Under the pieces are notes generated by a model. That model was not told where the DNA came from. It made no database searches and saw only the letters and a list, made by a program, of their open reading frames with translations. Positions 16,526 through 64,000 of a stretch of DNA of 64,000 bases are shown here, piece after piece. Numbering within the stretch: the first letter of the stretch is position 1; the number at the start of each line of letters is the position of its first letter. The translations under genes and the position numbers were made by a program. The DNA comes from Chara braunii (lineage: Eukaryota; Plantae; Charophyceae), in NCBI GenBank assembly GCA_003427395.1, contig BFEA01000032.1, forward strand, positions 4,907,489-4,971,488, read 5' to 3'.

Positions 16526-16528
<3 letters not shown>

Positions 16529-28534: not shown

Positions 28535-28840
28535 CGTATGAGTTTATCTTTTATTTATCCTATTTTACCTCAAGTTTGATGGATAAATGGGTGTTGAAGA
28601 ATTTGTGTGTTTATCTATTGATTTGGTGAATGTGTTCGTCAGTATAAGGGATAAGTTATGTTTTTCTTGGGAGCCAAGAAAGGACTGGGCACCGACTTAT
28701 GTTTTGAGTTAATATTCAGTGAAAGTTGTGACGCATGGTTAGACTTAGTGTCCTAGTCGACTGCCATACGACTGCGCTTGGAAGATCAGCGCTCCAAACG
28801 ATGGTTCGCGCACGGGTTTCATTCGGACGTTACACCGCAC

Positions 28841-35382: not shown

Positions 35383-35660
35383 GGATACTGGCAAAAATTC
35401 CTCTGTCTACCCGTCTTGATACTTGGACTGGGGAGTTCAATGTGCATGCGAGCCGGTGGGTAATTAGCCCACGAGGAGGAAAGAAACCTTGGTGGGGGGA
35501 GTCGCTGCGGGCGCACCGTCCGCCAACCACGGTGTGTTGTGACAGGTTTGAGTGCAAGCATGCTGACCAGGGGTCCACAAGGTGGTGAACTATGCCTGGG
35601 CGAGGCCAATGGGCGCCGGTAAAAGGTTCCCGCAGTGCTGGCCGCGCGGCCCAAGCCGTT
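35383..35660 (+). pseudogene. Degenerate 28S/26S rRNA fragment (sense) inside the LTR
   Basis: ACCCGTCTTGATACTTGGACTGGGGAGTT resembles ACCCGTCTTGAAACACGGACCAAGGAGTC. GGTGAACTATGCCTG follows at the expected spacing. Confidence 0.8.
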
Positions 35661-35671
35661 CCAGCAGCAGA

Positions 35672-35711
35672 CCACTTCGGCCCGCAAAGTTCTCATTTAA
35701 AGAATTGCTAC
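35672..35711 (-). pseudogene. Short degenerate 28S rRNA fragment (antisense to the LTR)
   Basis: CCACTTCGGCCCGCAAAGTTCTCATTTAAAGAATTGCTAC is a variant of the two longer copies. Confidence 0.65.
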
Positions 35712-35770
35712 AGCGGGGCCAGGGGGGCGCTGGTGGGAGGCTGCCGCAGTTTTTTGCTGTATGGCAAGGC

Positions 35771-35861
35771 TGTCCCAGCTGTTGTTCCATGGGACACCGC
35801 CCCCACCTCGATCTTCAAAGTTCTCATTTGAATATTTGCTACTACCGCCAAGATCTGCACC
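35771..35861 (-). pseudogene. 28S rRNA fragment (antisense to the LTR)
   Basis: Reverse complement GTGCAGATCTTGGCGGTAGTAGCAAATATTCAAATGAGAACTTTGAAGA is near-identical to a conserved eukaryotic LSU core. Confidence 0.92.
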
Positions 35862-35961
35862 AGGACCTGCGGGGTGGTGGAAGCCTGGGCAACCATGACC
35901 AAAGGATACACCGCCCGTTAACCTCAACCTGCTGCGAAAAGTGAGAGGGTTGGGTGTTGCA

Positions 35962-36210
35962 GGCCTGTGGGACCAGCAGCTGCGGACCCAGCTCAGTTGG
36001 TACACCCGCAAACTGCTGAAAATGGGCCTGTGGGAACTGCTGCAGCGGGCCTAGCTCAGTGGTACCCCCATGAACTGTTGAACAGGCATATGAGACCAGC
36101 ACCTGAGGACCTAGCTCAGATTGGTATACCCGCGGACTGTGGAAACATAGGCCCGTGGGAACAGCTGTCGGCAGGCCTAGCCCAGTTGGTAGACCTGCGG
36201 GCTGTTGAAA
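35962..36210 (+). repeat. Four tandem ~62-bp units, each a tRNA 5'-half with an A box
   Basis: CAGCTCAGTTGGTA, TAGCTCAGTGGTA, TAGCTCAGATTGGTA and TAGCCCAGTTGGTAGA, each followed by an anticodon-arm-like segment ending CTG(C/T)(T/G)GAA. Confidence 0.7.
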
Positions 36211-36407
36211 CACAAACCTGAGCTTAAACTCCACGGAAGGTGGGTGAGTGGGAGCTTGCGGGACATGTTGAAATACCGTTACTTTTATTTTTATTATTTT
36301 ATTATTGTTTATTACTATTATTATTATTATATTACTTATTCCAAGAGGTGGGGACTGAGCAAGGGGCGCCAGTGGGAGACTGCCACAATGTTGGCTGTGG
36401 AGCAAGT

Positions 36408-36686
36408 TGTCCCAGTAGTAGATTCACATGGAGCCCTTCCCCACTTCGGCCCCCAAAGTTTTCATTTGAATATTTGCTACTACCACCATGAGCTGCACCG
36501 GGCCCGCCTCACTTAGCTCACACTGCAGGCTGCACAGCAGGCCTGCGCCTTCCAGCTCATCGGGGAGTTGTGAAGGCCGATGTAGCCCTATCCCTTTGGG
36601 GCAAGCAGTCGGCAAGTGAGTTGATACACACTCCCTAGCAAATCTCAATTTCCACGACCACCACCACGCTGTCTGTATCAGCCACC
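36408..36686 (-). pseudogene. ~280-bp degenerate 28S rRNA fragment (antisense to the LTR)
   Basis: TTCACATGGAGCCCTTCCCCACTTC...TCATTTGAATATTTGCTACTACCACC...TCGGCAAGTGAGTTGATACACACTCCCTAGC...TTCCACGACCACC..GCTGTCT is colinear with LSU antisense. Confidence 0.88.
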
Positions 36687-37785
36687 AGTCGCTGAGGTGT
36701 ACGGGTTAGTGCGCAGTTTAGCGCAGATGGGAGGCAGCGGCTTAGCACAGGAAAGTGAGTGACGGGCAGCAGTGAAGAGAAGTGAACCTGGATAGGAAAC
36801 TGTGTCGGATGCATACAAGGCGAATTGGAGATGGCGGAGTCGATAAAAACGAATATGCCGACGGGGAAGAAGATGTTTTGCGACAGTTCCTCGATGGAAA
36901 CCGGCAAATGGAGGTTCGTTTCCTATGTTTTTGGCCAAGGCGAACCTAATGGCAGAGTAAGAAAGGGAAGTTAGTGGTTAGTTTTGGCGCTACAGAGGAA
37001 AAGTGGTGCGCGGGAGATGGCGGAGACGAGGAAGAAGGGGAGTGGGAACATTTGTATCTCGCTCGTTTCCGGACGAAATCGGGCGAGGGAGGACTCGAAT
37101 CGGGGGTTTTGGGGGTGGGAGACCCCGATTCTGAAGTCAGTACTGGTGAAAAGTCAGTAGAAAAGGAGTTAGTGGAGAAAGGAGCCGCGCGGAGGGATGG
37201 CAGAAGTAGATATGGCAAGGGTTGAAAAACAAAGATCTCACTCGATTCTGCACGGAATCGAGCGAACTAAAAGGCAGAATGGGGGTTTTGGAACATCACG
37301 AGTTCGATGGCGTGGTCAGTTTCTGTGATAAAGATACGGTTTTGGTGCTGCGGGACTCACGGGCTGCGCTGGGGAAAAGAAGGGCTGGAAAACGACAGTG
37401 TATCTTTCCATATTCTAGCGGAAGATACATTTTCATTTTGAACATTCGGTGGGAGAGTTTATTTGGTGGTCTTGCACTCTGCTGGTCACCTCCATTCTGT
37501 TGCTATCATCAGGGCTCAGTCGTTGTTGCCGGACACAGTCAAGGAGAGGGGCTGGTTGAGTTCGTCGCAGACGCCATCGAAGTCGTGGTGGTCGTATTTT
37601 GATCCACCAGTCCTGGCCATGTTCACGACCAGGTGCACTTGTTGGCTGAAGAGAGCGGGAAGGAGAACGGCGGGGGCTGCGCAACTACTAGTAAAGGCTT
37701 CAAAAATTTCAGATGTATCTTTCCGCGTTTTAGCGGAAGATTCATTCTACATTAGCACAATCTAATAAGGAGGGAGCATCAACGA

Positions 37786-37857
37786 GATAGATAGATAGAT
37801 AGATAGATAGAGATAGAGAGAGATAGATAGAGATAGATAGATAGATAGAGAGATATT

Positions 37858-37893
<36 letters not shown>

Positions 37894-37938
37894 GATAGAG
37901 AGAGATAGATAGAGATAGATAGATAGATAGAGAGATAT

Positions 37939-37997
<59 letters not shown>

Positions 37998-37998
37998 N

Positions 37999-38089
<91 letters not shown>
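37786..38089. repeat. (AGAT)n/(AG)n microsatellite inside the LTR
   Basis: Read directly from the sequence. Confidence 0.95.
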
Positions 38090-38092
<3 letters not shown>

Positions 38093-39769
38093 GGGCAACG
38101 ACACTCACCTCTAAGTGCTGGCGATGCGGAATGAGCGGAAGGTCGAGCTGTGGTGTCAGGCTGCAGAGCTCAACAACGGGAAAGATTCGTATGCATCTGC
38201 CCGGGTTTTAACAGAAAGATTCATTTTTACTGTGTGCCTTTGGTGGGTAGTGTAGCAAGGAGAACGTCATTCCCCGTGCTCGAGGTCGTCTTTGATGAAC
38301 CCACAGTCCGCTGTTTTCTGGTCGAGGTGGTGATCGTGCCCACTTTTGAGCATTGCAATGATGCTCTCCCTAAATCTGACTAGGGCCTGGGTCAGATGCA
38401 CCGAGTGAAGGTGGGCACAGTCATGATGAAGGGGGGGGTCGAAGCGAACAGGTATCAGGCGCGGAAGGAGGAAAGGCTATAGTGAGGCTAGAGCTCTCCT
38501 CTCATACTGATTACAATCAGATATAGAGAGAGATAAAGTAAGAAAGGGATGGGAGTGATGATGTAAAGGCACTTATCTGCTTATGGCAACAGCCTGTGCA
38601 TACAACATCTGCACGTATGTTGGTCGGTGCTGCTGACCGGATTGCTGCTCACAGTCCACGTTGCTGTGCATTGGCTCTGTGCTGCTGTAAGTTACTGCGC
38701 TTAAGCAGCCTGGACCTGCTGATATGCTTCATTGTTGTGCCTTGCTCAGAGTCTCCCGTGGTGCCTTTGCAACGCGGTTGCTGGTTAGTTTTTACGAATA
38801 TGGCTACCACTGTGCCTCGCTGCTGCTGGCGCCGTGTCTTTGTCATATCAACCGCGACACTTGCTGTGTGATACTGCTTGCTGGGAGCGGGTGCTAGTGC
38901 AGTGAAGAAGTGTGGAGGGCATAGGATTGGTCTGATTCAGTCTGTGTGCGCCTGGCTGCCTCCTCGCAGTTGTCTGTGCACAAGGACAGTGAAGTCACTG
39001 AAGTGCAAATCGTTTGTTGGACTTGGACATAGAGGCGGGGGACGTTGTCGGATGAGGAATTGGCTGACACATCACTTATTTTACCAGGCAACAAAGGGCA
39101 TTCTGAGCTGAGCTCAGCAAGATCTGGGCCTAGTGTTGGGTGCGGTCGGTCTTGCCACTTAGCTAGTTCAGAACTGCTGCCTGGCCTTGGGAATGTGCTG
39201 ACTGTGATAAAAAACAGACTGTTGTGGCTCTCTGGGAGGCTACTGTTGCAGCTGTTTTCAGAAGTTACTGTGATGACTGGTTCCTACCCGAACTACATAT
39301 TATTTTGGGACCGATTGTTACTACTCGAAGAGTTGTTGTTGTGTGATGGAGTACCGTTTGATGCTCCCAACTTCAGTAGGAGTTGCTTTTTTAAGAGATT
39401 GATGTCGCTGCTCCTAACTACTGTTATGAGTAGAGGCGTGGTTATGTGATCAAGAAAGATTGTTGTTACTATGGGGTTACTGTGGTACTTGGTGAGGCGC
39501 TGCACTGCAGCGACTGCGCACAACTGTTGTGCACGCAGTGCCTCATTGTGCTTTGGCCGCACATGTGCGGTGTTTTCTTGGGGGTGTGCTCTGCTTGAAC
39601 GCACCCTTCTTATGTTACGTAGTGACAGTTGGTCGGAGGGGGTAGCTTTGCGAGTTGAGGGAAGGAAACTGACTCTGCACAAGGATCATTGTTGCGGCTT
39701 GGACGACAGTCGGGAGGTCAACATTCGGCGTTTTGACTTCAGTTTGGCGGTATTACTGCGATTTTGGCC

Positions 39770-40036
39770 ACCATTGCGGGACCCTCAGGCGCACAAAGAT
39801 TATAAGGCCCTCTCCAGCGAGTCTGAGAGCACCCTTCTTGAATCTGAGAGATTGAATCTATCTCTTTCTGCCCTTCTTTCTGCAAGTCTAGTCTATTTGG
39901 TTCTGAGAGGAAGGCGGCAGGCGGGATTGCAACCCGTAGGACCGCAACAAGACTCTGTGGGGAGTCTGCCCACCGATTGCGGGAGCTCTGCTGGAACTCA
40001 TGAGGAGTTCTGGAGGCAGGGAACTGAAAGGTAACC
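39770..40036 (+). promoter_or_regulatory. Putative LTR promoter, first exon and splice donor
   Basis: Most conserved block versus 62060-62325. TATAAG lies at 39801, and conservation drops at AG|GT (40031; 62320 in copy F). Confidence 0.6.
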
Positions 40037-40341
40037 ATTGCTTTCTTTCTATAAACCCGGTATAACCCCTATCTGTATTCCCTGTGACGTTTCGACTGAG
40101 TAAATTGCATGCATCCCTATTTTGACTTTCAGTTTGACTTTCAGGATGAACCAGATTAAATAAAGGAATGTATGCTTAATCTCAGTTTCAACTTTGTTTT
40201 TTGACTGAAAGCAGATTGTAAAAAGGGAATGCATCTGGGAAAGCGTAGGATGGAACGCAGTTTTTGCGTGAGGGTTGACTGGGTCAATCGACTTGTTTAT
40301 TTTGGGGTTTCCTCTGTTTATTTCGTTCTTAACGAGGAGGT

Positions 40342-40906
40342 CTGAGCCATTCTATAAGTTTAGGTGGCTCAGCCTCTTCCTGCTTTTACTTAGAGGAAAT
40401 GAACTTGACAGAGGGTAGATCATTCTATAAGTTTAGGTGGTCTAGCCCAATGCCACGCACATATTGGGTCAGAGAGAAACGAATCAGGTAGAGAGTCAGA
40501 CTGTTCTGTAAGTTCAGGTGGTCTGACTCAAAGCCTTGCACATGCTGGAACCCAAAGGTTATAACTTGACTATATTTTATTACTATCTTATTTAAGAACA
40601 GGCTAGTCGGACTATTCTATAAGTTTAGGTAGTCTGACTATAGCTTATCACAACCTGAAGAGAGTATTAATTAAGAGTAAATTGATGGTAAGATGGGGCA
40701 AACTGAATTTGAGTTTGGTTCAGTCATATGCAGCCTGAAAAGACTAAGTGCAGACAATTATATATAACTTGGATATTTTAAACAGTTCAGGGCGACTATA
40801 ATGGTCTAGTCATATGCCCAAAGAATAAAGAAGTAGTTGTGCCCTTTGTTTTGTGTATACTTATCGGCTAAGTTAGACACATTCCATAAGTTTGGGTGGT
40901 CTGACC
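40342..40906 (+). repeat. Array of UAAGUU-loop RNA hairpins (5 intact, 2 decayed)
   Basis: Loops at 40355, 40428, 40509, 40620 and 40887 are closed by CTA/TAG, CTG/CAG or CCA/TGG, with covarying outer stems. Confidence 0.85.
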
Positions 40907-41214
40907 TTATGTCTTATGTAAGCAGGGTATAAAGGGTTAAATCCTTGAAAGATCATGAACTATTGTTGTCTAGATAAACTTGGGATGGTGAGAGTACTTA
41001 CCTTTGTGGTTTGACCTGCATGTGGCCGAGTGAGGTTACTACTTGGTCCGAGTTTCAGTTTGATAGGTAGTTGCTTTAGTCGCTCGGCACGTGCTAGAGC
41101 TGTAAGAGTTAGTTTCAATTCCTGCATTTTCCGAGCTAAGTTTTTTTTACTTAGATCAATTATCGCATTTTCTGGGATCATTTTTTTTTATTTGGCTTTG
41201 TATAAATCTTGACA

Positions 41215-41760
41215 AGTTACTTTCTCTACGGTAAGCGCTGCCGAAATTTCTACAAATCCAAGAGGTAGTCAATTGTTGACTTGTCAAAGTTCAACTTGTA
41301 TTTTTTTTATATATGACCCAGTAAAAATCTGGAAAGTTTCCTTTTCTAAAGAGAGTGCTGCCCAAATTTTTGCTAATTCAGGGAGTTAGACAAAATTGGA
41401 CTTTGAGAAGTCAAAGTTACTTTCAAATTCTGGACTTAGCCTTGTATAAATTTTGGAATAACACTTTTCTAGAGGGAGTGTTGCCGAAATTTCTGCAAAA
41501 GCTAAGGAGTTAGTTAAATCATGTCTAAGTTGAACCCAAGTTATCTTTTTAGTTCCTATCTGACTTAGTATAAATCTGGGAAGTCTCTCTTTCTAAAGGG
41601 AGTGCTGCCCAAATTTCTACTAATTCAGGGAGTTAGACAAAATTTGACTTTCCAAAGTTAAAGATTATTTATGCTTTCATATGTGGACTTATATAAATTA
41701 TGGAAAGATACTTTTCCTACGGGAAGCGCTGCCGAAATTTTCTTAGTTTGAAGGAGATAT
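41215..41760 (+). repeat. ~120-bp tandem subrepeat in the LTR
   Basis: TTTCTA.AGGGAGTGCTGCC.AAATTT...GGAGTTAG occurs about 5 times. Homologues lie at 63555-63965 and, inverted, at 56450-56600. Confidence 0.85.
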
Positions 41761-43030
41761 ATTATATTTTGATAGGTGATGATTCTGGTAATCCACTCTG
41801 AATAGGGAAGATTTTGCCATGAGTCTACCTTTCTTTGGGCACTTGCTTAGAGGTAGGCTTATATATAGTTAACTAGGATGATTTGGGTAAGGTCATGATA
41901 TGGAGATTGTTCTCCATGAACTTATAGGTTTAGCCTGGGGCATTTACCTGTCATGTGTTACAGGTCCTCTTGATCGTTTGATTCAAAATCCGGACTAGAT
42001 TCAACTTGATCCCTTGAGGGTCATCCTCTGTTATCACTGATAACAGGTCGGTTGCCGATTCGTTGGTTTGCGATTCAACTCCAATCCACTCTTGCCACTC
42101 AACCTAAATGCTTTAGCCCTGTGGTTTGAATTGTTTCATTGTGTTTTCACCCAGACTTTATTTTGAATGACCATTTAAGGAAAAAAAACTGAGTATTTTA
42201 CTTTGAGGAGTTGCACAAGAGTGAGGCTTGTGTGGCTAAAGGCAAGGGGTGTGAGTGCAGAGAATGGTTGAAGTTGACCCCGTATAATGCATGGACTTTC
42301 TGGATGAATCTTTGATGTGATTGCAGATATGCTTGGTGATTCGGACTTGGGATTTGACTGTCTGCGCTCACATACATATATATATGGCTGAGAGGAGTCT
42401 CACTGTGACTGTGAGAAGTGATCGTCCTATATTAATAACCCTCTATATATATGTGTATGTATATGTCTTGAGTGTTTCGTGCGGCTTATTGTGACCGCGC
42501 GTAAGAGTTAAACATATTATGTGTTTGAGAGAAAAGGGAGATCCCCTTTTATCTTGTGTTTTTTAAAGATTTTTATACTCGGACGTTTGTCCTGAGCCGA
42601 GATTCAAGGTCCTTATCCAGGACATCCCAAACCCTAGACTCTGCAGGGAAGAAATCTGTCCCCGTGCAGAGCCTACTTGCCTTGCGTACCGAGACGCTCA
42701 GACCAAAGGTGGGAGGTCTCGCGGCGGCTGCACGACTATTCCTTCAGCCGTGCAATATCGTGAGGGATCAGACCATCACGATACTTCGAGTCTGACACTT
42801 GAGAGCCATAAGTGGTACTCGGATCCACGAGGGACCGCTTGATTACGGGCACTACATAGTACGCCATCATTGCGACTGCTTACGTACGCTTGCATTACGA
42901 GTCGGTATGAGTTAGTCCTGCGTCCGCGCGGTTGTATACTAATTCTCGCGCGCGACGCCTATTCGATTCCCGCATCGGAAAGTTATGGGATGACTACCAA
43001 AGAGACTGGGAATGTCGTCGCGTTGTTTGA

Positions 43031-43064
<34 letters not shown>

Positions 43065-43534
43065 TTTTTTGCGTTCGTAGAGTGGTGTGCACGTGGTGTG
43101 TGGGATGCGTCCTAGTCGACCGACGACGAGTCGCACTTGGGACCGCACCCCCCCAAGATGGCGGTCTGCGTGCGGGTCCGATAGAGGCGTACTACCGCAT
43201 GTACCCCCTATGCTACAGCGAACGAGAAACACCCTCGGCTGGTGCACCTCTGCGATTGCAGCTGATTAGCTTTCGTAATGTGGACTGGTAGCTCGACGGG
43301 GATACGCCCACCGAAGGGAGGTGACAACTCCCATAAGGTGGAGGTAAGGCGTGCCTCGCGTAGGCCCTGTCCTGTCGTAGGGGCTCGTGAGAGGTATGGC
43401 TGGCGCACTCGGCTGGAGCGGCTTGCGGAAGCTCCATGTATATTCGCGATGAGAATTATATCCAACTCCTGCGTGACGCGGCCGGGAGGGTCCCGCGCTG
43501 CCCTATGAGGTGCCGGACCAATGCGCTCGACAGG

Positions 43535-43552
43535 TGGCGCCGTTGCCGGGGA
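43535..43552 (+). promoter_or_regulatory. Primer-binding site for tRNA-Asp(GUC) (Athila-type)
   Basis: TGGCGCCGTTGCCGGGGA is complementary to the plant tRNA-Asp 3' end TCCCCGGCAACGGCGCCA, 2 nt after the LTR-terminal CA. Confidence 0.92.
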
Positions 43553-46567: not shown

Positions 46568-47529
46568 TGTCGGTGCGAATACCCTTATGAGGGTATTCAC
46601 CCTGGTTTTTGCAAGCAACAGAAAATAGTTTTGGCTTAGAGCTTAAGTATACCGTGCTAGGCGTTACGTTGACTGGATTATCGATTAGAGTAAAGAGTGC
46701 GTGGCCGCGCAGGTTTAAGGCGCGCGTGATTCATCCCCTGATATCGTTTACGAAACCGGCGCGGACGCCAGTCTCTTTATTTTTATTTTTATCTCTAAGT
46801 CTTTATTTTTGGTTACTCTTGATTAAACTAGGATCTAGGGGATATTTTCTTTCGATGGCTACGTTTATCCGGGTCGAGCGCGCGTGCGGAGAACGCCCCC
46901 GACGACGACGTTGACAATGACAGCGCGACTTCGTGCGACGAGCGGGGTGTCGCAGGATGGCGCGCGGGGTGATTATGGCACGGTATAAGCAAGCCGTCGC
47001 GGGGCACTGGAAAGCCGTGCAGCCGGTTTGTGGACCCAAAGCGCCGAGCCGAACTGCCTTGTATGGTGCTTTGCGGGTGCTGGTCTCAGGCTTGGATTTA
47101 GCCCTATAGGTTACGATAACGGACAATTACTATGAAGGTTCGGGGATCGAGGCCAGCGGGCGTCGGCCCAACAACTGTAGCGGAGCGGCGTGAAAAGGGC
47201 CGAGGGGTCGAGGGCCCGACGAGGGCTATCCCCCTCCGCTTTTTGTTTGCGGGCGCGGAGGAGGAGGAGAAGGGCCGATCCGTAGGGCTGCCCGTTGAAA
47301 TTCCCCGTTTTAGAGTTATTGAGTTTGCTTTTGTTTAATCTCCTTTTTATTCTTGTTTTACTCGCGTCCCGTTCTGGGACGCGATATCGGGCCTGATATG
47401 GGGTCACGGGAGGTGAGTTGTATTCGCGGGGTTGTCGAAAGTGCAATTACAAACTGTTTTCGTGACCGCGCTGGAGCCGCACCCTGCTTTGTCATGGGAC
47501 GAGGCACAGTGGGGGCGCGGCTGGCGCCC

Positions 47530-47603
47530 AGGAGCCTAGCTCAATAGGGGCACCCTTGGGCTGCTGAGTCGTGGATCCGGGTTTGGACCAGAAAATGGAG
47601 CCT
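47530..47603 (+). pseudogene. Degenerate tRNA-like element in the LTR
   Basis: TAGCTCAATAGG (A box), an anticodon-arm-like GGGCTGCTGAG and GGTTTGGACC (decayed B box). It resembles the units at 35962-36210. Confidence 0.45.
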
Positions 47604-47703
47604 GTTGAGAAGGTTAAGTAGTTCAAGGTTGCCTGGGGCCAAGCGGACCCCGAGGGCGGCCGCATGGTCTTTGGTAATGCCATGATGGGGCGGCCGCGGT
47701 CAA

Positions 47704-47792
47704 GTTCTTCGGGACATCCGTTAAAATTGGAACGATATAGAGAAGATTAGCATGGCCCCTGCGCAAGGAATAATGCGTATAAAACGGGGAGA
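47704..47792 (+). ncRNA. U6: U6 snRNA-derived copy embedded in the LTR (variant or pseudogene)
   Basis: GTTCTTCGGGACATCCGTTAAAATTGGAACGATATAGAGAAGATTAGCATGGCCCCTGCGCAAGGA matches the plant U6 core. ACAGAGA has become ATAGAGA (47738), the 3' end is divergent, and no USE/TATA lies upstream. Confidence 0.92.
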
Positions 47793-50700
47793 GGAACGAG
47801 AATTTCGGGTTTTCGTTTTGGGGATTGGTTTCACTCTCTCGCTGCAACACTCTTTGCTACGAGGGCGGATCGCTATTTCGCTATTTGGCAGCTGCACTAT
47901 GAGGCGGAGGCTGGCGAACGGGAAGTACGAGGCAGCGGGGGAGGGAATAAATGTGGACGCAGTCTCGTGCAAGGGACACTCCTAGTAGAAAAAGGGAGGC
48001 GCCGGGGCAACGGAAGCTGCGAGCGCCGGTGGTGCTGATCGGAGCAGGGCGCCGGGGAACGAAGGTGCGAGGGAGCCAGCGAACCCGGCACGCTGCCGGG
48101 GCCAGGTGCATTCGGAGGTAGAATAAGCGGAGCTGCAATGATGCGCAGCGTGGCGGACTGACGGGCGCTATGGGAGCGTGGAGTTGAGGTAGCGACGGCG
48201 GGTGCTGGGGACATGGAGCGCATCGAAGAGCTGCGGGGGGGGGGGATGGACGTTGAATCAGCAGTCAGGCAGAAGGGATAAACCTGGTTGGACTAGTGCG
48301 CCAGGTGCATGCAAGGGAAAGTGGAGATGGCGGAGGCGAAGTGAAGGCAGGGCGCAGTCAAGGAGGAGTGGCGTAACCGATTTGCGGTGGAATCGAGTTA
48401 GGGGATACAACTGGCGTTAGTACGGAGGCGACAAGGGGAGAAAGAAATAGGAATGAACCCGGACGTGGGGTGCGCCGGGTGCATTCGGAGCGAAGAGGAG
48501 GTATGGCGGGGTGGATAACTCACAACTCGCCCGTTTCTTAGCCAAATCGGGCGAGCGAAGAGTTGATTTCGGGGGTTTAAAGGTGGGCGACCCCGACTGT
48601 AGTGTTAGTTTTAGGATTAGATTAGTAGATTGTGAGTTAGTGAGAAAGTCAGTGAGGGGAGCTATGGCGGAGAGATTAGGGGGTGGGATGACGACCGGAA
48701 AACGCCCGTTTCTCTACGATAGCGAGTGTCTACGGGGTCGAAACTGGCAGTCGAGTATGGGGTTAGATAAGAGAAATAGTTAGCAGGAGGAGAGTTAGAG
48801 GAGGGATGGACTGCGAGGGGTGAGGAGGAGAGGAGATTCGAATGAACCCAGATGGGTTTCCGCGTTAGGTACATGCAAAGGAGGGAGGGAAAAAAATATT
48901 GATCCCACCCATTTCCTGATGAAAACGGGTGGGAGAAAGGTCGACTCCAATGTTTTTCGGCAGGGCGGATTTGAAGTCGGTTCAGTCAAGGAGTTAGCAG
49001 TTAGTGAGCTAGAAAAAGAAAGGTTATGCGTGAGGTGATGGACATGGCCCTTTCGGGCCGAAAAGGTCGCCCGTATACATCCATTATTATTATTATTATT
49101 ATTATCCATTGTCATTGTTATATTATATTTATTATTATTATTATTATTATTTTTTATATTTATTTATTTATCTATTTATTTATTTATTTATTTATTTTTA
49201 CCCTACCATCACGATCGGTGGTTCCTCCGTATGAGCTGCTGTTCAGAAAGTACGAACATGACGTGATCGCAACAAGCTGGGGAGAAGAAGAAGAAGAAGA
49301 AGAAAAGGGGAGAAGAAGGGGAAAGGAAAGGAGGCGAATGGTGGTTCTTGGGTGTATGAGACATCTGTGAGTGGGGGATCGAGGTTGTGAGTGGTACGAG
49401 AGACATACCTGGTGCTGAAGGCGTGCAACATTGATCGCCATGTGCTCGTACTTCGGGAATGCTTTTGACCTCATCTTTCGACTTCATAGTATAGGCTAGA
49501 TAGGATCTGTCACATGTAGTCCTCCTAGTGAATCACATCTTCCTAGTGGATCATACCTAGTGGAAGTCCCCCGCGCGACTTCCCCTCCCCGCTTCGCACT
49601 CCTTCCCCCCCTCCCCCCACGCCCGTGCCATACCCCCCGCACATTTCTTTCCCCACCTACTTCGCGCTCCCTCTCCTACCCTCGCGACACATGGCACAAT
49701 AGGACAAGGCTTACAAATCATCGAACATCATAGAACTTGCCCGTTTTGTTTTTTTTTTCGTTTTAAAATTAATTCTTTTCGATTTTTTTTTTTTTTCGCA
49801 GTTTGTTTTCTTTTTCATAGTCAGCAATTATTATTCTCTTTTCCTTGTCATTTATCTTTCAAAAATTAATTTCGCAATTAATCAATTTAACCATTTTCAA
49901 ATACTTTTGAATCTTGATTTTTTTTCCGAATATTTTGCATTTCGAAATGAATTTCTTCGGAAATACCCTAAAATTTCATTTACTCCACCCAAAAATTGCA
50001 TTTCCGTTTTTGAAATTCCAAAAAGTTTTTCTTGCAAATATTTTAATTACTTAAATAATTAAACTCCGAAAAAGAACCAAATCAACATTTAAATCCAAAT
50101 TCAACTTTCTTTTCGTTTTAAAAATTCTCGAATTTCTTTTTCAAATTTCGTTGTATTTTTCTCGAATTTAACCTTTTTTTTTTCCAACATTTCTTTTATT
50201 TTTTCAAAGTAATTTAAAAATCCCGATTTAAATTATTTTCATAATTATCAATTAAATTCGTTAAAAGTTCAAAATAACCCCCCAAAGTATAGCATTTGTT
50301 TTTTTTTTCCATTTATTCCAATTTTAAAATTTCCGCATTTTGTCACAAAAAATAGCCCGAAATTTTTTATTGTCATTTAAAATTTCTTCCTCCCGAAATT
50401 TTTAATTGTCATTTACTAATTTTTTCCCTTCCTCCCGCCAACCTCTCCCAAAGTTCCAATATTTTTCCTCTTCTTCTATCTTCTCCCCATTCCCCCATCC
50501 CTCCTCTCCCATCACACCCAATTGGTCACATCATCTAAAATTTCTAATGCGTGTGACACGTATATCCTCTTTTTGTGTTTGTTTGACAATGCCGTTCATC
50601 GTGCTGTGTGAAACACCAACCTAATTCGGTGGGATCAATCTTCGTTCTGTCTTCTTCCAACGCCGCAAACGGAATAAATTTCGGCCATTTTGTTCAAAAG

Positions 50701-51326
50701 GTACGTGAAATTCTTTATTTACATCAAATTCTTTCATAACTTAGTTTAAAATTTGACTTTATTTCAGAGATTCGTAAAATAAAATTTAAAATTTACTACA
50801 TTTAATCCTTCTGACGTCCACTTTACTTCTACTTTATATCCCTCGTAAAATTCCAAAATTCTAAAATTTCGCAATTCGTTTTGAAATTCTTTTGAAAATT
50901 ATTTGAATTTTTTTTTAATTTTACAACATGTCGATACAATTTATTAATTCATCTAAATAAATTTGAAATTCCTCCCAATTCAATTTACTTGACTGTCATT
51001 CAATTCTTTCTGCCATTTCATCGTAAATTTTTCAATTACGAATGAGTCTTCTATTTTTATTTCAAATCACCTTTGAAATTATCTTAATTCCAAAAATACG
51101 TTAAGGAATTGTTCATTTTAATTCAAAATCCTCCTCTGTACTCATCTCTGCATGTTTTATCATCTCCTCGAACTTTCGGTAATTTTGACGAATATTTTTG
51201 AAATTCCTTGAATTTTGCTTCAATTTTCTTTCAATTCCGAATTTACGTCCAAATAATTTCGAAACTTTATTTTGACTTTGTGATTGTTTTATGCATGCTT
51301 TCCTTTATACCCCGCGTCTGACTCGA

Positions 51327-52029
51327 TGGAGATTCCCACCCCTGCGGCCGCCAGTTCGGGCCCCACCACGCAGTCAGACCCTGTACTGGCCATCCTCCAG
51401 CACATACGGGCCACATTCGAGGCCAAATTTACGGCCATGCAAACCAACTTCGATACTTTGTCGGACCGACTGTTTGGCACTTGAGACACTGGTTTTGGGT
51501 AGAGAGAGGTCTCCCGCTCGTACGTGGCACGCAGTCGGATTCCAATACCACCGCACGAAACGATATTCCTAGCCAAATGAATAAAGACAAGACATGGAGA
51601 AGGAAGGGCGACGAGCCATGGGGAGCAGAACATTTTAAGAGGGCACCCACAAAAGTCTTTCAAATAAAAAGGGATGACGGAAAGCTTGGCGTGACCTTGC
51701 AGCAACTAGCGTTTACAGAACTCGTGCTTCGCACACAAATAGAACAGACAAAGAAGTCAAGCAAGGCGTCGAATCAGTTGCTGAAAATGACCGCTATTAA
51801 GAACGACATAATCAATAAAGCACGGAACCGAGACAGAGTTATGAGTTTCTGCATTTTCAAGCTTGACCGCGACACACGTATGGCAGATGTGGCAACGCAG
51901 TACTACAATGCAGGCAATAGAAAGACAGAGAACAGTGCAGTCGACGACAAGGGCAACACAGTACATGACTTTGAATTCGAAGTCTTAGCCCCGCAGACGC
52001 AACCACAAACTTCATGCGCAGGACCTTGA
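51327..52029 (+). pseudogene. Frameshifted ORF of unknown function, possibly a transposon ORF1/gag-like gene
   Basis: MEIPTPAAASSG...LQHIRATFEAKFTAMQTNFDTLSDRL continues in another frame for about 180 aa of protein-like sequence. It follows an AT-rich intron-like tract that starts AG|GTACGT at 50701. Confidence 0.4.
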
Positions 52030-54944: not shown

Positions 54945-54962
54945 TCCCCGACAACGGCGCCA
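54945..54962 (-). promoter_or_regulatory. Primer-binding site for tRNA-Asp (minus-strand element)
   Basis: Minus strand reads TGGCGCCGTTGTCGGGGA directly after ...CTCGACA-GG. Confidence 0.9.
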
Positions 54963-56979
54963 CCTGTCGAGTGCATCGGTCCCGCAAGGAGACCCTCCGG
55001 ACCGCGTCACGTAGGATTTGGAGCGTGGTTTGCCGCTCCAGCCGAGTGCGCCAGCCGTACCTCTCGCGAGCCCTTACGATAGGACAGGGTCACGCTAGGC
55101 ACGTCTTACCTCCACCCGCGGAAGTTGTCACCATCCCTTCGGTGGGCGTATCCCCGCCGAGCTACTGAACCACGTGCGAAAGTTTTTCGTTTGCAGTCGC
55201 AGAGGTGGTTCGGTCGAGGGCGTTTCTCGTTCACTGTAGCATAGGGGGTACGCGCGGTCAACGCCCCTCAATCGGACCCGCACGCGAATCTACGCATTGG
55301 GGGGTTGAGGTCCCAAGCACAACTCGTCGTCGGTCGACTAGGACGCATCCTACATATCACGCGTTACACTACAATACTCACACACACGGAAGGACACAAA
55401 ACAAACAACACAATAACACAACAACACTCCCAGTCCCTTTATTGCCTGACCCATTACCTTTTAAAATGGAAGTCGGTTAGGTGTCGCTCGTGAGACTCAA
55501 GATAAAATAACGCAGGCGCAGTGCTTTTTCATATCGACTAGCCATGGAAGCATACGCAAGCAGTCGTAATGATGAAGTAATGTGTGGTAGTCAAAATCAT
55601 GCGACCCTTGATGATCTCGGGGGTCACATTTTGACACTCAAGTGTCGGCTGACACTCGCCTTGAGGGGTTAATCTTTTGGCGCTAGACAACCGCCAAGGC
55701 GGTTGATCACCACACCCTCTTCTGCACCCTATGGAAAGTGGGTGGTACACAGGTTCATACCTGTGGTGACAATCGTCTCTTATTGCCCTGGAGACCAACT
55801 CCACCATCTAGAACGTGGATAAAACTCAAGGAGTTTGACTTTGACGGCTGCCACGGACTATAACGTCCAACTAAAAAAACAAAAAGGATGAAAGGGGAAT
55901 CTTCGTTTTCTCTCAAAGTATAATCTGTTTAACCCTTGCACACGGTCACAATGGGTCGCGCGAACATCCAACGTGTAACTTCAATCATTCTTTGCGCTAA
56001 CACCCCTCGCTTTAGCCATACAAGCCTCTCACTCTTTGTGCAACTCTCAAAAAAAAAATACTCAGTATCTTTATTAAATGGTCATTCAAATAAAGTCCGG
56101 GTAAAAACACAACGAAACAAATCAAACCACAGGGTTAAAGCCTTCAGGTTGAGTGGCAAGAGTGGATTGAAGTTGAGTCGAAAACCGACAAATCGGCAAC
56201 CGACCTGTTACTAGTGATAACAGAAGATGATCCTCATTGGATTAAGTTGATGCTAGCCCAAATCTTGAATCAATTTGAATAAAGATGGCCTGCAATGCAG
56301 CACAGCCCAGTGCCCAAGCCATGCTTGAGTGATCATGAAATAAACCTACGTTCCTCATTAGCCTCCGATGTTTATAAAAGAATGTCAGGAATTTTGACAT
56401 ATATCCCTTGAAGGGCAGATTGTCGAACCTTCAAGTTCTAAAATACCTTAACTCCTTTAAAATATAAAAAATTTCGGCAATGCTTCCTGTAGGAAAAATG
56501 CCTTTTCATAATTTTCAAGTGTCAAAAAATGACTAACTCCTCCAAATCTGTAAAATTTCGGCAGCGCTTCCCGTAGGAACAGGAGACTGCCAAGATTTAT
56601 ACAAAGCTGAAAATGCAAAGACAAAGTACAACTATACTTGGGACTAACTTCTGACAGTTACTTGATAGTTAGAACCGGAGATAGTCTGCACGATCCCTTC
56701 TTGAAGATGGCATCGTGAGCTAACACCGATCCTAACTCCTAGTAGGGCCAGTCCTATCTTATCCCAAGTTTCCCTCCCACCATCCATCTCACCTACCTAA
56801 AGTTCTAGCACTCAGCGAGCATCTAAAACAACTAAGCTATCAAAAAGATGCCCCAAACGATTGTCCACAAACATGCATAACAAACATCTCTCTCAGTCCC
56901 ACATCAGCTTAATCCGAATCGTTCGTTAATCTCTCAATTTTTTTGACCCTCAATAACCCCCTTTCCTATGGCATAGGAT

Positions 56980-58177
56980 CAGACCGCCCCAACTTAAGGG
57001 TACGCCCGAGTGAAACAAATAGGGTGCGCACAACTAGACTGCCCCAACTTAGGGGTATGCCTAGCTTCCATGACAGAAACGTGTGTGCAGACTACCCCAA
57101 CTTAGGGGTATGCCCAACCCAACATTAACTGTGCACATAAAGCATATGACCAGACCGCCCTAACTTAAAGGTACGCATGACTTTTTCTTAACTGACGACA
57201 TGAGGCATATGACTGGACTGCCCTAACTTAAGGGTATACCTAGTTAGCCTTAAACGAAGTTTACGTAGGGCATATGATTAGACTGCCCCAACTTAGGGGT
57301 ATGCCTAACCTGCCTAAACAGGTACAAACGACGAATGGTCAGACCGCCCTAACTTAAGGGTACGTCCAACCTACATAACATTAACGACGCTAAACCGCCC
57401 CAACTTAGGGGTACGGCTAGTTAGCCTAAACAGTTTAAGATACATAAGGCAATGTGACCAGACCGCCCTAACTTAAGCCACAGGTCCCCCCGCCACCGAA
57501 AACCCCTAGTCCCTGTGTTAGGGCCGGTTTGTACGGAGGGGCGGCGACCGTACGGAGGCGTCGGGTTGTGCGGAGACCGACGGGTCCAATCCCACCATTT
57601 TGCAAGCGGCAACTTTGCCGATTTTTTATGCTCAAAAGAAGTCATGAAAATATCTGAAAATTTGAGCGTCTGTAGATTAGGTCATGATCTTTCAGGGAAA
57701 AATATCAGAAAAAATAAAATAAAAATAATTTTCACGGTGAAATATTCGCCGCGCCGATTCGGTTTATTTTCATTTTTTTTCGCAAATTTCGTACGGAGGC
57801 CCGCCCGGTTTTCCGCGCTGTACAACCGGTACCCGTCGTGAAACGGCGCTACCGGTATCCCGAGGTTTTTGACGTTAGGGGGACCTGTGGTGCCTGATCT
57901 GCCTAAAACAAGTTACAAACGACGTATGACTAAGCCGCCTCAACTTAGGGGTACGCTTAGCCTCCGTAACAACAGTTCAAACATTCATGAATACTTTCAT
58001 ACAAACTTAATAATTTCAGTTCTTCTTAGGCAGATGATCAGACCGACCCAACTTAGGGAGACATCCAACCCTGCCTTGTGTTTAAAAGGGAAAAAAAAAA
58101 AAAAATTATACTAAAACGCTGCCCCTTTTTGTGTTATCACGAGCATAAAACTGAACCGCGCTAACTTAAGGGTACGC
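56980..58177 (-). repeat. Array of 12 UAAGUU-loop hairpins with variable spacers
   Basis: Plus-strand GACYGCCCY-AACTTA-RGGGTAYGC with loops at about 56991, 57046, 57099, 57162, 57225, 57290, 57351, 57402, 57470, 57942, 58050 and 58163. Confidence 0.9.
57478..57890. mobile_element. ~410-bp MITE inserted into one hairpin unit
   Basis: TIR CCACAGGTCCCCC / GGGGGACCTGTGG with GTACGGAGG subterminal repeats. No clear TSD. Confidence 0.8.
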
Positions 58178-61100: not shown

Positions 61101-64000
61101 GTGTGTTGCCCGTGTGATCCCGTCAGGGTGCATGAGGGGCCTCGTTGTACTACTCATTATGCTGCCCATGGACGAAGAGTCATTCGTGATCTACTGTGTG
61201 AGTTGCAGTTGGACCATCTTCGACTGAATCTGGCTGTATCAGTGACCAGATTCGTCGATGTAATCGGAGTCGTAGTGAGGTCTGGATCGGGAGCAGGATA
61301 GTAAGAGGGTCGGAGCGAAGGCGAGGACTACTCGAAAGGAGAACGCAAAAAACCAGCGGGAGACCAGGGGAGAAAAAACCATACGTTCCTGAGCAGTTTG
61401 CAAAGCTAGCGATGCTTGCCGAATAGCTGAGTGCTGAAGCTATTGCTCACTAAGTGATCATCTGCGCGGCCGTGTGAGTGATCATGCGGGTTGCTGTTCG
61501 CTATGCGCGCAGAGCCTTACTGGAGCGATTGCGGTGGTTACTACGGGTACTCCATGCCGTCGGCTTGGCCGAGGAAGCTTGGGCCTTGCCGCTAGGTGGG
61601 GAGACCGAGACTACGGGAAGGGGCTGCTCTGCTGCTGTGTGAACTGTTGGTGGCCCCAACTGTGCTCCTACTGAAGCAGCCGCGGGGCTTGATACGGGCT
61701 GCCAGGGCTGCTGAGCGACGTTACGCTACTGCGCACGCTTCATTCTGTCACGATAGCGACCGCTGAGTGCACGGTCCCGTCGGCCCATTCAGCCCTGTGT
61801 ACTGGGCCCCGTATCAAAGCGCCTAATGGCGGGGCTAACTGCTGATTTCAGACGGGATGTGGGAAAGAGGAAGTGATTGAATAACAAAAGGAGGAGGGTA
61901 CTTTTGTCGTGGACTAGGAGGTCACAAAAAGGTTGGCTCCGACGGGTTAATTTCGGCCAACCAGGCTGCGACTGACGGACTATTGTTGCAACTTAGAGAG
62001 CCGTCAGGCGTATAACCTCAATGATTGATTCGGGGTTGACTAAGCTGTTACGTCGGCTGTCATTGCGGGGCCCTCAGGCGCATCCAAATTTAAAGACCCT
62101 CTCTTGCGAGACTGAGAGCATCATTCTTGGATCTGAAAGTCTAAAATCCTTCTCCTTCTGCCCTTCTAACTCTCAGTCTAGTCTTGTGGTTACGCGAGGA
62201 AGGCGGCAGGCGGGATTGCCACCCGTAGGTCCGAGTCAAGACTCTGTGGGGAGTCCACCCACCGATTGTGAGAGCTCTGCCGAAACTCATAAGGAGTTCT
62301 AGAGGCAGGAAACTGTCAGGTATATCATTTTCATCTGTATCACCCACTACTACCCATGTTTGTTTATCTCCCTGCAGTATGACTTACGTATGCATGTGTG
62401 TCCCTATGATTTGGCTTTCTTTTTCAGGATTCAATCAGACTGAATGGAAGGAATGTGTGAAAGTGAAGTTTAAGTTTCTCTTTTGTTTTAATTGAAAGCA
62501 GACAAGGGATAAAGTAGGGAAAGGTGGGAGGAAGGTGGACTGCATGCGTTTGGAAGAGTCAACCAAAGCCTGAGCATTGTTTCTACTGTGAATGGTTCAT
62601 GACTATGTTTATTTGGCTGTTTTATGAAGGACCACGCATTGTTTCTACTGTGAATGGCCTGGTTGCTATGTTTATTTCGTTGTTCTCTGGAGGACCGGGC
62701 ATTGTTTCTACTGTGAATGGCCTGTTTACTCTCTGAGGGTTTGCCTGATTGAAGGGGTTTAAATTCTTGTTTAGTCTGAGGGAGGATTTTTGTTCTAAGG
62801 CTAAGCATTGTTTCCATGATGAATGATTTAGCCTGAAAACCACGCACATAAATTAAAGTAAGTATAAAGGAAAGTACTTTATGTATATTTGCATGTGAAC
62901 TGGCAGTTGGACATTGTTTCTACTGTGAATGGTCCAGCGTTAAGCCATATCATTAAGAAGAGAAAAGGAAAAATACAAGGTATAAATGAAAATAGTTTGG
63001 GCAAGCTGAACATTCTTTCTACTGTGAATGGTTCAGTCCCCTGCCCATATTTGCCTTTTTCTTTTGAAAACAAAGTCAGAGAAATACTAAAATTTTGGAT
63101 ATTAAACAGCTCAGGGCGACTATACATTTTTTCCATGACGAATGGCCTACTCATCTGCCCAAAAGAAGAGAGAAGTAGTTGTGCAATCTGTTTGTGTATA
63201 TCATAAAGACAATCTGAGAATTGTTTCCATGACGAATGGTCCAGCTCTATGTCTTATGTAAAATGGGTATAAGGATTCAAGGACTTGAAAAATTCATAAA
63301 CTATCTATGTAGAATTGACCTTGGATGGTGAGAGTACTTTCCCTTGTGGTTTAGCTTGCATGTGACTAAGTAAGGTCACAACTTAGTATGAGTTTCAGGT
63401 TGGTAGGTAGTTGCTTTAGTTGTTTGCCACGTGCTAGAACCATAGGAGTTAGTATCAAGTCCTGCATTTTTTCTAATAATTTTTTTTACTTAGGTCAATT
63501 CTTGCATTTTCTAAGATTTGTTCTTATCCTTGGCTTTGTATAAATTTTGGCAAACTACTTTCTCTACGGGAAGCGCTGCCGAAATTTTTAAAAATTCGAG
63601 GAATTAGTTGAATTTTAACTTGACAAAGTTGTCAAAAGTTCAACTTTGTCTTTTTCTGACTTGGAATAAATCTGGGAAGTCTCCCTTTCTAAAGGGAGTG
63701 CTGCCAAAATTTTTGCTAATTCAGGGAGTTAGACAAAAATTGAGCTTTGGGATGTCAAAGCTACTTCCAAATTCTAGACTTAGCCTTGTATAAATTTTGG
63801 AATAACACTTTTCTAGAGGGAGTGCTGCCGAATTTTTTACAAGAATTAAGGAGTTAGACAAATTTTGACTTTCCAGAGTAAGAGATTATTTTTACTCTCA
63901 TATCTGGGCTTATATAAATTCTGGAAAGACACTTTTCCTACGGGAAGCGCTGCCGAAATTTTCTTAGCTGGAGAGGAGATAGATTATATTTTGACAGGTG
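58178..64000 (+). mobile_element. LTR of the same family (copy F), running off the window
   Basis: TGTCG start inside a repeat unit of copy E. It is colinear with copy B (62060-62325 with 39770-40035; 63100-64000 with 40780-41780). Confidence 0.9.
62571..63245 (+). repeat. Array of 8 hairpins with a different core motif
   Basis: CATTGTTTCTACTGTGAATGG or CATTGTTTCCATGAYGAATGG at 62575, 62637, 62700, 62806, 62912, 63011, 63125 and 63219. Confidence 0.88.

What the first reader, a model, noticed from the sequence alone, without database searches (positions are those of the whole stretch)
62571..63245. Subfamily 'barcode' swap: a different hairpin motif at the same homologous positions
Seen: 63105-63300 aligns with 40782-40965 in its flanks. 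Where copy B has CATTCCATAAGTTTGGGTGGTC, copy F has AATTGTTTCCATGACGAATGGTC. All 8 units in F use the new core, in two sub-variants, with covarying outer stems (GGAC/GTCC, CTGAAC/GTTCAG). The repeats have therefore changed together while some spacers stayed alignable. Inference: RNA signal and cognate protein co-diversify, for example for self versus non-self packaging against non-autonomous parasites.
Basis: partly seen in the sequence, partly recalled or inferred. Interest (0 to 1): 0.8.

Follow-up and report, generated by a model that had tools for sequence, protein, structure and literature searches.

The report
Subfamily-coded RNA hairpins in giant LTRs
In a likely stonewort (algal) genome, related retrotransposon end-repeats carry rows of 5 to 12 predicted RNA hairpins whose 19-base core is nearly fixed within a subfamily but different between subfamilies at the same positions, likely a binding code for an element-made protein that has not yet been found.

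Summary
Observation confirmed. Copy F has 8 hairpin units of one core type, copy B has 5 (plus 2 collapsed) of another at collinear sites, and copy E has 12 of a third. All cores are 19 nt between a closing C-G pair. Cores are about 16/19 alike within a copy but 6/19 between F and B, whose spacers stay 75-81% alike. Two outside F-type copies repeat all 8 units; there cores differ 4-5% and spacers 10-12%. Outer stems covary and favour G-U over A-C on the sense strand, which points to RNA. The arrays lie inside what look like 7.6-8.6 kb Ty3-type LTRs (TGTCG...CGACA, Athila-type primer site) of a high-copy family, likely in a Charales alga. Best reading: a repeated RNA site for an element-made protein (packaging, export or TAR-like activation), homogenised within each element and recoded between subfamilies. 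No partner protein was found, these copies are non-coding, F's inner fold and the direction of change are unresolved, and no paired LTR was seen. Concerted motif turnover is known (VANDAL/VANC, Sirevirus LTR palindromes); the RNA-structured form and the LTR size were not found in my searches. New variant of a known kind.

The parts
62567..63248 (+). Copy F hairpin array: 8 units, 19-nt cores at 62576, 62638, 62701, 62807, 62913, 63012, 63126, 63220 (sub-variant order a,a,a,b,a,a,b,b); units 1-3 lie in a 63-bp tandem repeat
   Evidence: same 8 units and order in L001 and L002
58178..64000 (+). Copy F, predicted LTR, open at the window end (projected about 7.6 kb from copy B); inserted into the array of copy E; preceded by ACGC
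   Evidence: shared 5' terminus and collinearity with B; E-type contigs continue past 58176 with other sequence (table 8)
62061..62319 (+). Conserved non-coding head upstream of the F array (82% to B); TATA-like word and pyrimidine patch, predicted core promoter or R start
   Evidence: no codon-position bias, mismatches 13/18/15; deepest bin upstream of the array; promoter reading is inference
62320..62427 (+). Predicted GT-AG intron between head and array; same place in B (40031-40144)
   Evidence: sequence only; no spliced read among the joints shown
63520..63967 (+). Degenerate repeats of about 125 bp downstream of the F array (B 41183-41778; E 56440-56633, minus)
34943..43532 (+). Copy B, predicted complete 5' LTR of 8590 bp from TGTCG to CTCGACA, including a microsatellite-linked insert near 37670-38090 and an rRNA fragment
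40339..40908 (+). Copy B hairpin array: 5 intact units with loop TAAGTT and a single-U bulge, 2 collapsed sites
43535..43552 (+). Primer binding site 2 nt after the B LTR end, starting TGGCGCCGTTGCC (Athila-type tRNA-Asp/Asn site)
   Evidence: motif as given in 10.64898/2026.03.20.713144 (passages)
42239..42252 (+). PPT-like tract plus TGT inside the predicted LTR, conserved in E (56013-56000, minus); unexplained, no depth step there
54965..58177 (-). Copy E: 3' 3.2 kb of a related LTR ending CTCGACA, 5' part displaced by F
56974..58177 (-). Copy E hairpin array: 12 units, loop TAAGTT, 4-bp CCCY/RGGG stem, RTA/CR internal loop; unit 4 is cut by a 430-bp insert
   Evidence: joints 57475>57907 in other copies
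54945..54962 (-). Primer binding site after the E LTR end (one change from B's)
   Evidence: depth falls from 202444 to 5263 across it in X1
18848..19461 (-). 614-bp internally deleted copy that joins the LTR start, the head and the LTR end in one orientation, without a primer site (likely a deleted solo LTR)
46568..49041 (+). Copy G: 5' part of another LTR of the family, with a U6 fragment, no head or array; a further 5' terminus lies at 45671

Best explanation
The array is a row of predicted RNA hairpins inside what is likely the very long LTR of an algal Ty3-type retrotransposon, and it likely serves as a repeated, subfamily-specific binding site for a protein made by the autonomous partner element. 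Each unit is a position-specific outer stem that presents a 19-nt core. In the transcript (the 5' leader or R region if transcription starts in the conserved head, the 3' end if it starts further down) several copies of the partner protein (Gag/NC or a Rev- or Tat-like accessory protein) would load on the array and license packaging, export of unspliced RNA or elongation. Short-patch copying between neighbouring units, probably by template switching of reverse transcriptase at hairpins with the shared stem ends as anchors, would spread a changed core along the array while spacers stay put; selection for a matching protein would then hold the core fixed in that subfamily. Shown: motif types, their positions, conservation pattern, outer-stem pairing, termini and primer site. 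Inferred: LTR status, transcription of the array, the partner protein, the copying mechanism and the function.
For: Core identity 15.7-16.0 of 19 within F, B and E but 6.2 (4-7) of 19 between F and B, whose spacers are 74.5-81.0% alike. Among F, L001 and L002 cores differ at 6-8 of 152 positions (4-5%), spacers at 41-48 of about 410 (10-12%). Pairing: B 95% of 60 cells paired, 9 of 15 pairs with change on both sides, 0/500 shuffles as high; 23 distinct F-type units 88.9% paired, 39 cells with change on both sides against 15.6 shuffled; E 85.6%, 3/500; slid controls 25-52%. Non-Watson-Crick stem cells are 33 G-U against 9 A-C on the sense strand (p 0.009 against a composition-based share of 0.6, p 0.04 against 0.65; units not independent). 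All 4 displayed near-fixed differences between E and its relatives that fall on stem positions go from a mismatch or G-U in E to a better pair in the majority (40 of 416 rows were shown). L001 and L002 pair better than F (52 and 54 against 46 of 56 cells). LTR reading: shared 5' terminus at 5 places and 3' terminus at 3, primer site behind 2 of 3 ends, a deleted copy joining start, head and end, depth step at the end, NCGN before 5 of 5 starts.
Against: No partner protein: Pfam found nothing in 6 read-through frames behind the two primer sites nor in B's upstream frames; two protein searches from copy B were blank. F's whole array folds no better than shuffles (z +0.8; B z -3.4) and only 2 of 8 F units reach z below -2. 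F's core is almost invariant, so its inner fold is not fixed by covariation: RNAalifold prefers a 12-nt loop with a bulged G to my hexaloop model. Covariation counts ignore relatedness of the units. RNA reads lie on the region but are mostly under 95% alike (132 of 2667 in X6 and 3 of 134 in X5 reach 95%), strand is unclear and no splice joint was among the rows shown. No second, paired LTR or clean target-site duplication is in the window; the 5' half of F has far fewer close relatives than its array (depth 44-208 against 26000-102000), and a PPT-like tract sits inside the predicted LTR.
Confidence: 0.55

Rival explanations
1. The units are DNA-level sites in the LTR for an element-encoded anti-silencing protein or a host transcription factor, like VANC motifs in VANDAL transposons; the stems are a by-product of how the repeats arose.
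For: Concerted gain and loss of motifs among related subfamilies in non-coding repeats is documented for VANDAL21 (PMC5735166, section 9 read). Subfamily variation in repeated LTR motifs is documented for Sireviruses (PMC4728375, passages). The array lies in an LTR, and the transcription start is not mapped.
Against: A double-stranded DNA site needs no pairing between its flanks, yet the flanks differ from unit to unit and stay complementary, with G-U favoured over A-C on one strand. The cores are not palindromes. No VANC-like protein was seen.
Confidence: 0.15
2. Neutral concerted evolution: hairpins stall reverse transcriptase, and template switching and quasi-palindrome correction keep stems paired and cores alike within a lineage, with no partner and no function.
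For: Units 1-3 of F are a plain 63-bp tandem repeat; B has lost two cores by deletion between stems; F's array is weakly folded as a whole. Repeated copying among units would by itself slow core divergence within a subfamily.
Against: Palindrome correction gives Watson-Crick pairs, not an excess of G-U on one strand. Core length is 19 nt in all three types. The a/b sub-variant order is the same in F, L001 and L002 at 85% identity, so homogenisation is not fast, yet cores are still about 2.4 times more conserved than spacers.
Confidence: 0.18
3. The hairpins are bound by a host RNA factor (export, localisation or small-RNA machinery), and cores turn over between subfamilies to escape host small RNAs while the fold is kept.
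For: Hairpin-rich LTR regions are small-RNA hotspots and evolve fast in maize Sireviruses (PMC4728375, passages); a simple-retrovirus CTE binds only host NXF1 (PMC12789967, passages).
Against: A conserved host factor would not be expected to accept cores only 6 of 19 alike with a shifted inner stem; escape would favour diverse cores within an array, whereas they are uniform. No small-RNA data were examined.
Confidence: 0.12

Closest known systems
Athila / OTA (non-chromovirus Ty3) LTR retrotransposons (PMC6317226, passages; 10.64898/2026.03.20.713144, passages)
   Same: TG...CA termini, primer site starting TGGCGCCGTTGCC right after the LTR, large non-coding regions with repeat arrays; that group has the largest LTRs, up to about 5 kb in that survey.
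VANDAL/VANC motif arrays (PMC5735166, abstract and section 9)
   Same: Many copies of a short motif in non-coding parts of a transposon change together between related subfamilies; the partner protein is element-encoded and changes specificity.
   Different: VANDALs are DNA transposons and VANC binds a 9-bp DNA motif; here the host is an LTR retroelement, the unit is a stem-loop with covarying stems, and no protein is known.
Sirevirus LTR palindromic repeats (PMC4728375, passages)
   Same: Repeated, hairpin-prone motifs inside the LTR that differ among families and loci.
   Different: Copia elements; symmetric palindromes with conserved arms; here the arms vary and the asymmetric core is what is conserved, in a likely Ty3 element.
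Retroviral cis-acting RNA elements TAR/Tat, RRE/Rev, CTE (PMC12789967, passages)
   Same: Structured RNA in the LTR or in unspliced RNA that recruits a protein. The B/E geometry (small 5' bulge or internal loop, 4-bp stem, 6-nt loop) resembles TAR, and E's G.G/A.A covariation resembles the Rev site; both resemblances are recalled, not tested.
   Different: Those are one or a few elements per genome, not a dispersed row of 5-12; no Rfam family matched the arrays; function here is untested.
Retrosat2 of rice (PMC3485330, passages)
   Same: Long LTR (3.2 kb) whose R domain alone is about 2 kb, a precedent for a large transcribed LTR part.
   Different: Less than half the size, and no hairpin array in the passages read.

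Membership tests
LTR of an LTR retrotransposon | TG...CA termini with short inverted ends | tested here: met
   TGTCG at 34943, 45671, 46568, 58178 (TTTCG at 19461); CTCGACA at 43532, 54965, 18848
LTR of an LTR retrotransposon | primer binding site just after the 5' LTR | tested here: met
   2 of 3 ends, 2 nt downstream; depth step there
LTR of an LTR retrotransposon | two similar LTRs around an internal region, PPT before the 3' LTR | tested here: inconclusive
   no paired LTR in the window; none of 5 starts has a PPT before it; a PPT-like tract lies inside the unit; no genome held
LTR of an LTR retrotransposon | target-site duplication | tested here: inconclusive
   only the deleted copy has both flanks: CCGA left, CGGA right, 3 of 4
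Autonomous Ty3 element | gag-pol behind the primer site | tested here: not met
   0 Pfam families in 6 read-through frames of 1.3 kb (B) and 2.7 kb (E); no hit from 47 fetched Ty3 proteins beyond 4 kb of the window
Athila lineage | tRNA-Asp/Asn primer site TGGCGCCGTTGCC | tested here: met
   exact in B, one change in E (motif)
Athila lineage | placement by RT/RH/INT phylogeny | not testable with these tools
   no polyprotein linked to these copies
Athila lineage | LTR of about 1-2 kb (Brassicaceae search window) | tested here: not met
   8590 bp in B, projected 7.6 kb in F
Phygy (moss non-chromovirus Ty3) | NCGN insertion preference | tested here: met
   ACGC, CCGC, CCGA, ACGC, CCGA before 5 of 5 starts; CG frequency 0.044; preference from PMC6317226
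Phygy (moss non-chromovirus Ty3) | short element, internal part almost all coding | tested here: not met
   against the description
Sirevirus repeated LTR motifs | symmetric palindrome with conserved arms in a Copia LTR | tested here: not met
   arms vary, core conserved and asymmetric
VANC target arrays | units change together between subfamilies | tested here: met
VANC target arrays | bound as DNA by an element-encoded VANC protein | not testable with these tools
   no such protein seen; binding needs experiment
TAR/RRE/CTE-type RNA elements | match to a curated family | tested here: not met
   none of 11 Rfam matches at E up to 0.5 falls in an array
TAR/RRE/CTE-type RNA elements | stem-loop in the element's RNA bound by a cognate protein | tested here: inconclusive
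   pairing supported; transcription of these copies and binding not shown

The most novel reading that the evidence does not exclude
A charophyte Ty3 lineage with 7-9 kb LTRs uses a row of bulged RNA hairpins as an orthogonal address code: each subfamily's Gag or accessory protein reads only its own 19-nt core, whole arrays are recoded by unit-to-unit conversion, and copy B, with two collapsed sites, is caught between codes. This would be an RNA counterpart of VANC motif turnover and a natural set of orthogonal RNA-protein pairs.
Probability: 0.33. Interest if true: 0.8.

Novelty: new variant of a known kind. Interest (0 to 1): 0.56.

Why it matters
How LTR retrotransposons tell their own RNA from relatives' RNA is open: a 2026 model paper calls the evidence for private replication in LTR elements less clear-cut and expects parasitised elements to evolve more self-specificity (PMC13558583, passages). 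A discrete, repeated, subfamily-specific RNA motif makes this testable by cross-binding and by matching motif types to protein clades. Orthogonal hairpin-protein pairs would also be useful as RNA tags.

Tried and rejected
No whole genome was held, so copies could not be counted or classified genome-wide. A conserved LTR-tail pattern found nothing in viral or metagenome contigs; the F core pattern found 2 contigs. No RNA holder was listed for the F stretch. Earlier scan notes: nothing returned in 4 look-ups. Coding reading of the head: rejected, no codon-position bias and no relative of the 194-aa frame among 1.84 billion representatives. A 75-aa frame behind B's primer site had 18 candidates and no hit; the gag fragment at 2856-3470 had 269 candidates and no hit. 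Tandem reading, with a 1.3-kb LTR starting at the PPT-like tract at 42240 and the array in a 3' UTR: first favoured, then dropped because depth shows no step there, loose ends there agree at 0.87, and the deleted copy joins start, head and end. An LTR start at TGTTGC (39690/61984): dropped because B and F stay collinear upstream to a shared terminus, though the depth rise near 62000 is not fully explained. A fourth core type in the window: a structure-only scan gave 61 hits, 15 in the three arrays, and no other cluster of like cores. tRNA genes: 0, so the primer could not be matched to a host tRNA. Direction of change: distances 3' of the array do not settle it (B-F 75.6%, B-E and F-E 70.2%, B-L001 82.8%, E-L001 64.6%, E-L002 73.7%). 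Pfam was run on 6 of 33 planned read-through frames; the hypervariable LTR middle and the stretches 19.5-26.7 kb, 30.5-34.9 kb and 49.2-52.1 kb were scanned only through their longer open frames or not at all. B-type copy number was not measured. The G.G/A.A covariation in E may be only shared CpG decay. Structure prediction and complex prediction were not used: no candidate protein.

Full report
Setting. The window is eukaryotic and repeat-rich. A Ty3 reverse-transcriptase fragment at 377-1111 (minus) has its 23 best hits, and 24 of 47 hits in all, named Chara braunii at 57-70% identity, so the host is likely a stonewort. That element is separate from the ones studied here and is not shown to be their partner. 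No whole genome was held.

The observation. Copies B and F align over 39683-41778 and 61977-64000. F has 8 units, five with loop TACTGT and three with loop CATGAY; B has 5 intact units with loop TAAGTT and two sites where the core has dropped out between the stems; a third copy, E (minus strand, 58177-56974), has 12 units with loop TAAGTT and a different stem. Flanks show that B2/F4, B4/F5 and B5/F8 are the same sites, and that B's collapsed sites match F6 and F7. In all three types the core is 19 nt long between a closing C-G pair. Cores are 15.7-16.0 of 19 alike within a copy, 6.2 between F and B, 5.3 between F and E and 10.1 between B and E, while the spacers of B and F are 74.5-81.0% alike and the head 82.3%. 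Models built on each type do not cross-detect above background: the F model gives its 8 units 41.6-50.3 bits and the next of 13 hits 13.5; the B model finds the untrained fifth unit at 34.5 bits and no F unit. The weak next hits include B and E units, which hints at a shared build.

Is it a subfamily trait? For F, yes. One exact-core scan of metagenome contigs gave two contigs, L001 and L002, 85% alike to F over 1.3-1.5 kb. Each has all 8 units at the same sites with the same order of sub-variants, 16 of 16 F-type. Among the three copies cores differ at 6-8 of 152 positions, spacers at 41-48 of about 410, stems at 12-20 of 112. So the core is held within the subfamily and yet two-thirds different in B. 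These contigs were picked by the core itself, so they cannot show how many copies lack it. Laid contigs give summed depth 26000-102000 over F's array and 3200-16600 over E's in run X1, against 11-18 for contigs with 0-1 differences from the window; this is no copy number, but both types are clearly abundant. B-type abundance was not measured. In X3, 71 contigs leave F at 63200, just before unit 8, with a mixed consensus (agreement 0.51), which suggests further types at that site.

RNA or DNA? With structures I named, B has 95% of 60 cells paired and 9 of 15 pairs with changes on both sides (0/500 shuffles); E 85.6% of 132 (3/500); F 85.2% of 88 (0/500); the 23 distinct F-type units 88.9% of 253, with 39 double changes against 15.6. 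Slid controls give 25-52%. These counts do not correct for relatedness. Imperfect stem cells are 33 G-U and 9 A-C on the sense strand; composition predicts a G-U share near 0.6 (p 0.009; 0.04 at 0.65). Of the 11 displayed near-fixed differences between E and its relatives in or beside the array, 4 fall on stem positions and all 4 give a better pair in the majority (only 40 of 416 rows were displayed). F itself is decayed: 46 of 56 stem cells pair, against 52 and 54 in L001 and L002, and its whole array folds no better than shuffles (z +0.8, 16 of 20 shuffles as good), unlike B's (z -3.4). RNAalifold recovers my structure for E but for F prefers a 12-nt loop with a bulged G; F's inner fold is open because the core hardly varies.

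What carries the arrays. A shared 5' terminus (TGTCG followed by a palindrome) stands at 34943, 45671, 46568, 58178 and, on minus, 19461; a shared 3' terminus (CTCGACA) at 43532, 54965 and 18848. B and F are collinear from start to array in the alignable blocks, with unalignable middles. The 614-bp copy at 19461-18848 joins start, head and end in one orientation. Two of three ends are followed after 2 nt by TGGCGCCGTTG(C/T)C, the Asp/Asn primer site described for Athila (10.64898/2026.03.20.713144, passages), and depth falls about 38-fold there. All five starts follow NCGN, the preference reported for moss Phygy elements (PMC6317226, passages). F is inserted in E's array: E-type contigs run on past 58176 with other sequence. 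The simplest reading is a Ty3-type LTR of 8590 bp in B (with inserts) and about 7.6 kb in F, the array ending 2.0-2.6 kb before the LTR end. Against it: no paired LTR, no clean duplication, a PPT-like tract inside (42239; no depth step at its E counterpart), and a 5' half with few close relatives (depth 44-208 over most of 60100-61933). One contig joins the sequence just behind E's primer site to F's start region in element orientation (54929>58227), which would fit tandem units with a very short internal part; it is a single contig from one sample. Behind the primer sites B and E share decayed sequence with no Pfam family in six frames.

How it likely works. Upstream of the array lie a conserved non-coding head (no codon bias) with a TATA-like word and a pyrimidine patch, and a predicted GT-AG intron kept in B and F. 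If transcription starts there, the array is in the long R/U5 leader (a 2-kb R is known in rice Retrosat2; PMC3485330, passages); if it starts lower, the array is at the RNA's 3' end. Either way it would be in the genomic RNA. Variable stems that present a fixed, subfamily-specific core are what a repeated protein-binding site looks like. I put 0.55 on an element-made partner (Gag/NC, or a Rev- or Tat-like protein; PMC12789967, passages), with the array recoded by short-patch copying between units. RNA reads lie over the region but come mostly from other copies, and neither strand nor splicing could be read. Rivals: neutral concerted evolution (0.18), DNA sites of the VANC kind (0.15), host factor or small-RNA escape (0.12). 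Which core came first is open: E and B share the loop, but B's collapsed site ends in F-type letters, and distances do not settle the tree.

Compared with what is known. Motifs that change together between subfamilies are described for VANDAL21 (PMC5735166, abstract and section 9), and repeated hairpin-prone motifs that differ by family for Sirevirus LTRs (PMC4728375, passages). Large LTRs up to about 5 kb with repeat arrays are known in non-chromovirus Ty3 elements. No Rfam family matches the arrays. Seven searches, judged from listings and abstract starts, showed no paper on such an RNA-hairpin array in an LTR or on these algal elements; the library lacks most subscription papers, I did not see the Chara genome paper, and I read no supplements, where repeat libraries may list the family. 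The TAR and Rev-site resemblances are recalled.

Verdict. The partner and the function are inferred. New variant of a known kind; interest 0.56. The bold reading, an orthogonal RNA address code, has probability about 0.33 and would deserve 0.8.

Noticed in passing
window 47704-47805 (+), 8637-8742 (+), 18039-18150 (-): U6 snRNA-like fragments (72, 34 and 25 bits); the best lies inside the 5' part of LTR copy G, recalling small-RNA pieces in Cassandra, Helenus and Ajax LTRs (PMC10886601, passages).
   Followed up: partly
window 36581-36687 (-): Fragment of large-subunit rRNA inside the hypervariable middle of LTR copy B (45 bits).
   Followed up: no
window 7221-11396 (+) and 20476-15113 (-): Two inverted, 60-75% alike copies of a long unit that carries histone H2A (with a histone stem-loop at 10853-10898) and a U6 fragment; possibly a gene-capturing element.
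   Followed up: no
window 60634-60736; also 37400-37440, 37669-37763: Short high-copy hairpin repeat; reads continue into (TG)n behind it, and in the window one copy precedes a long (AGAT)n/(AG)n tract: perhaps the end of a microsatellite-linked element.
   Followed up: no
window 42239-42252 (+) and 56013-56000 (-): PPT-like tract plus TGT inside the predicted LTR, in an 87% conserved block; possibly the relic start of an older, shorter LTR.
   Followed up: partly
window 57478-57905: A 430-bp insert splits unit 4 of E; other copies lack it (joints 57475>57907).
   Followed up: partly
window 26746-30490 (+): Pieces of another copy of the LTR family (5' region and tail, no head or array) broken by two palindromic MITE-like inserts near 27880-28510 and 28820-30200.
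   Followed up: partly
L001 276, 593, 687; L002 282, 598, 692: The b sub-variant in both outside copies holds the self-complementary hexamer CCATGG across its loop, a possible kissing-loop site; F has CCATGA at these places.
   Followed up: no
window 377-3660 (-): Broken Ty3 element with gag and RT remnants and a Met-type primer word at 3656; nearest proteins are from Chara braunii.
   Followed up: partly
window 51322-52029 (+): 235-codon open frame after an AT-rich stretch, no Pfam match.
   Followed up: partly
window 25812-26356, 22496-23271, 13166-13541: Other degenerate tandem arrays (about 147, 305 and 150 bp units); the first gives weak microRNA-precursor matches below threshold.
   Followed up: no
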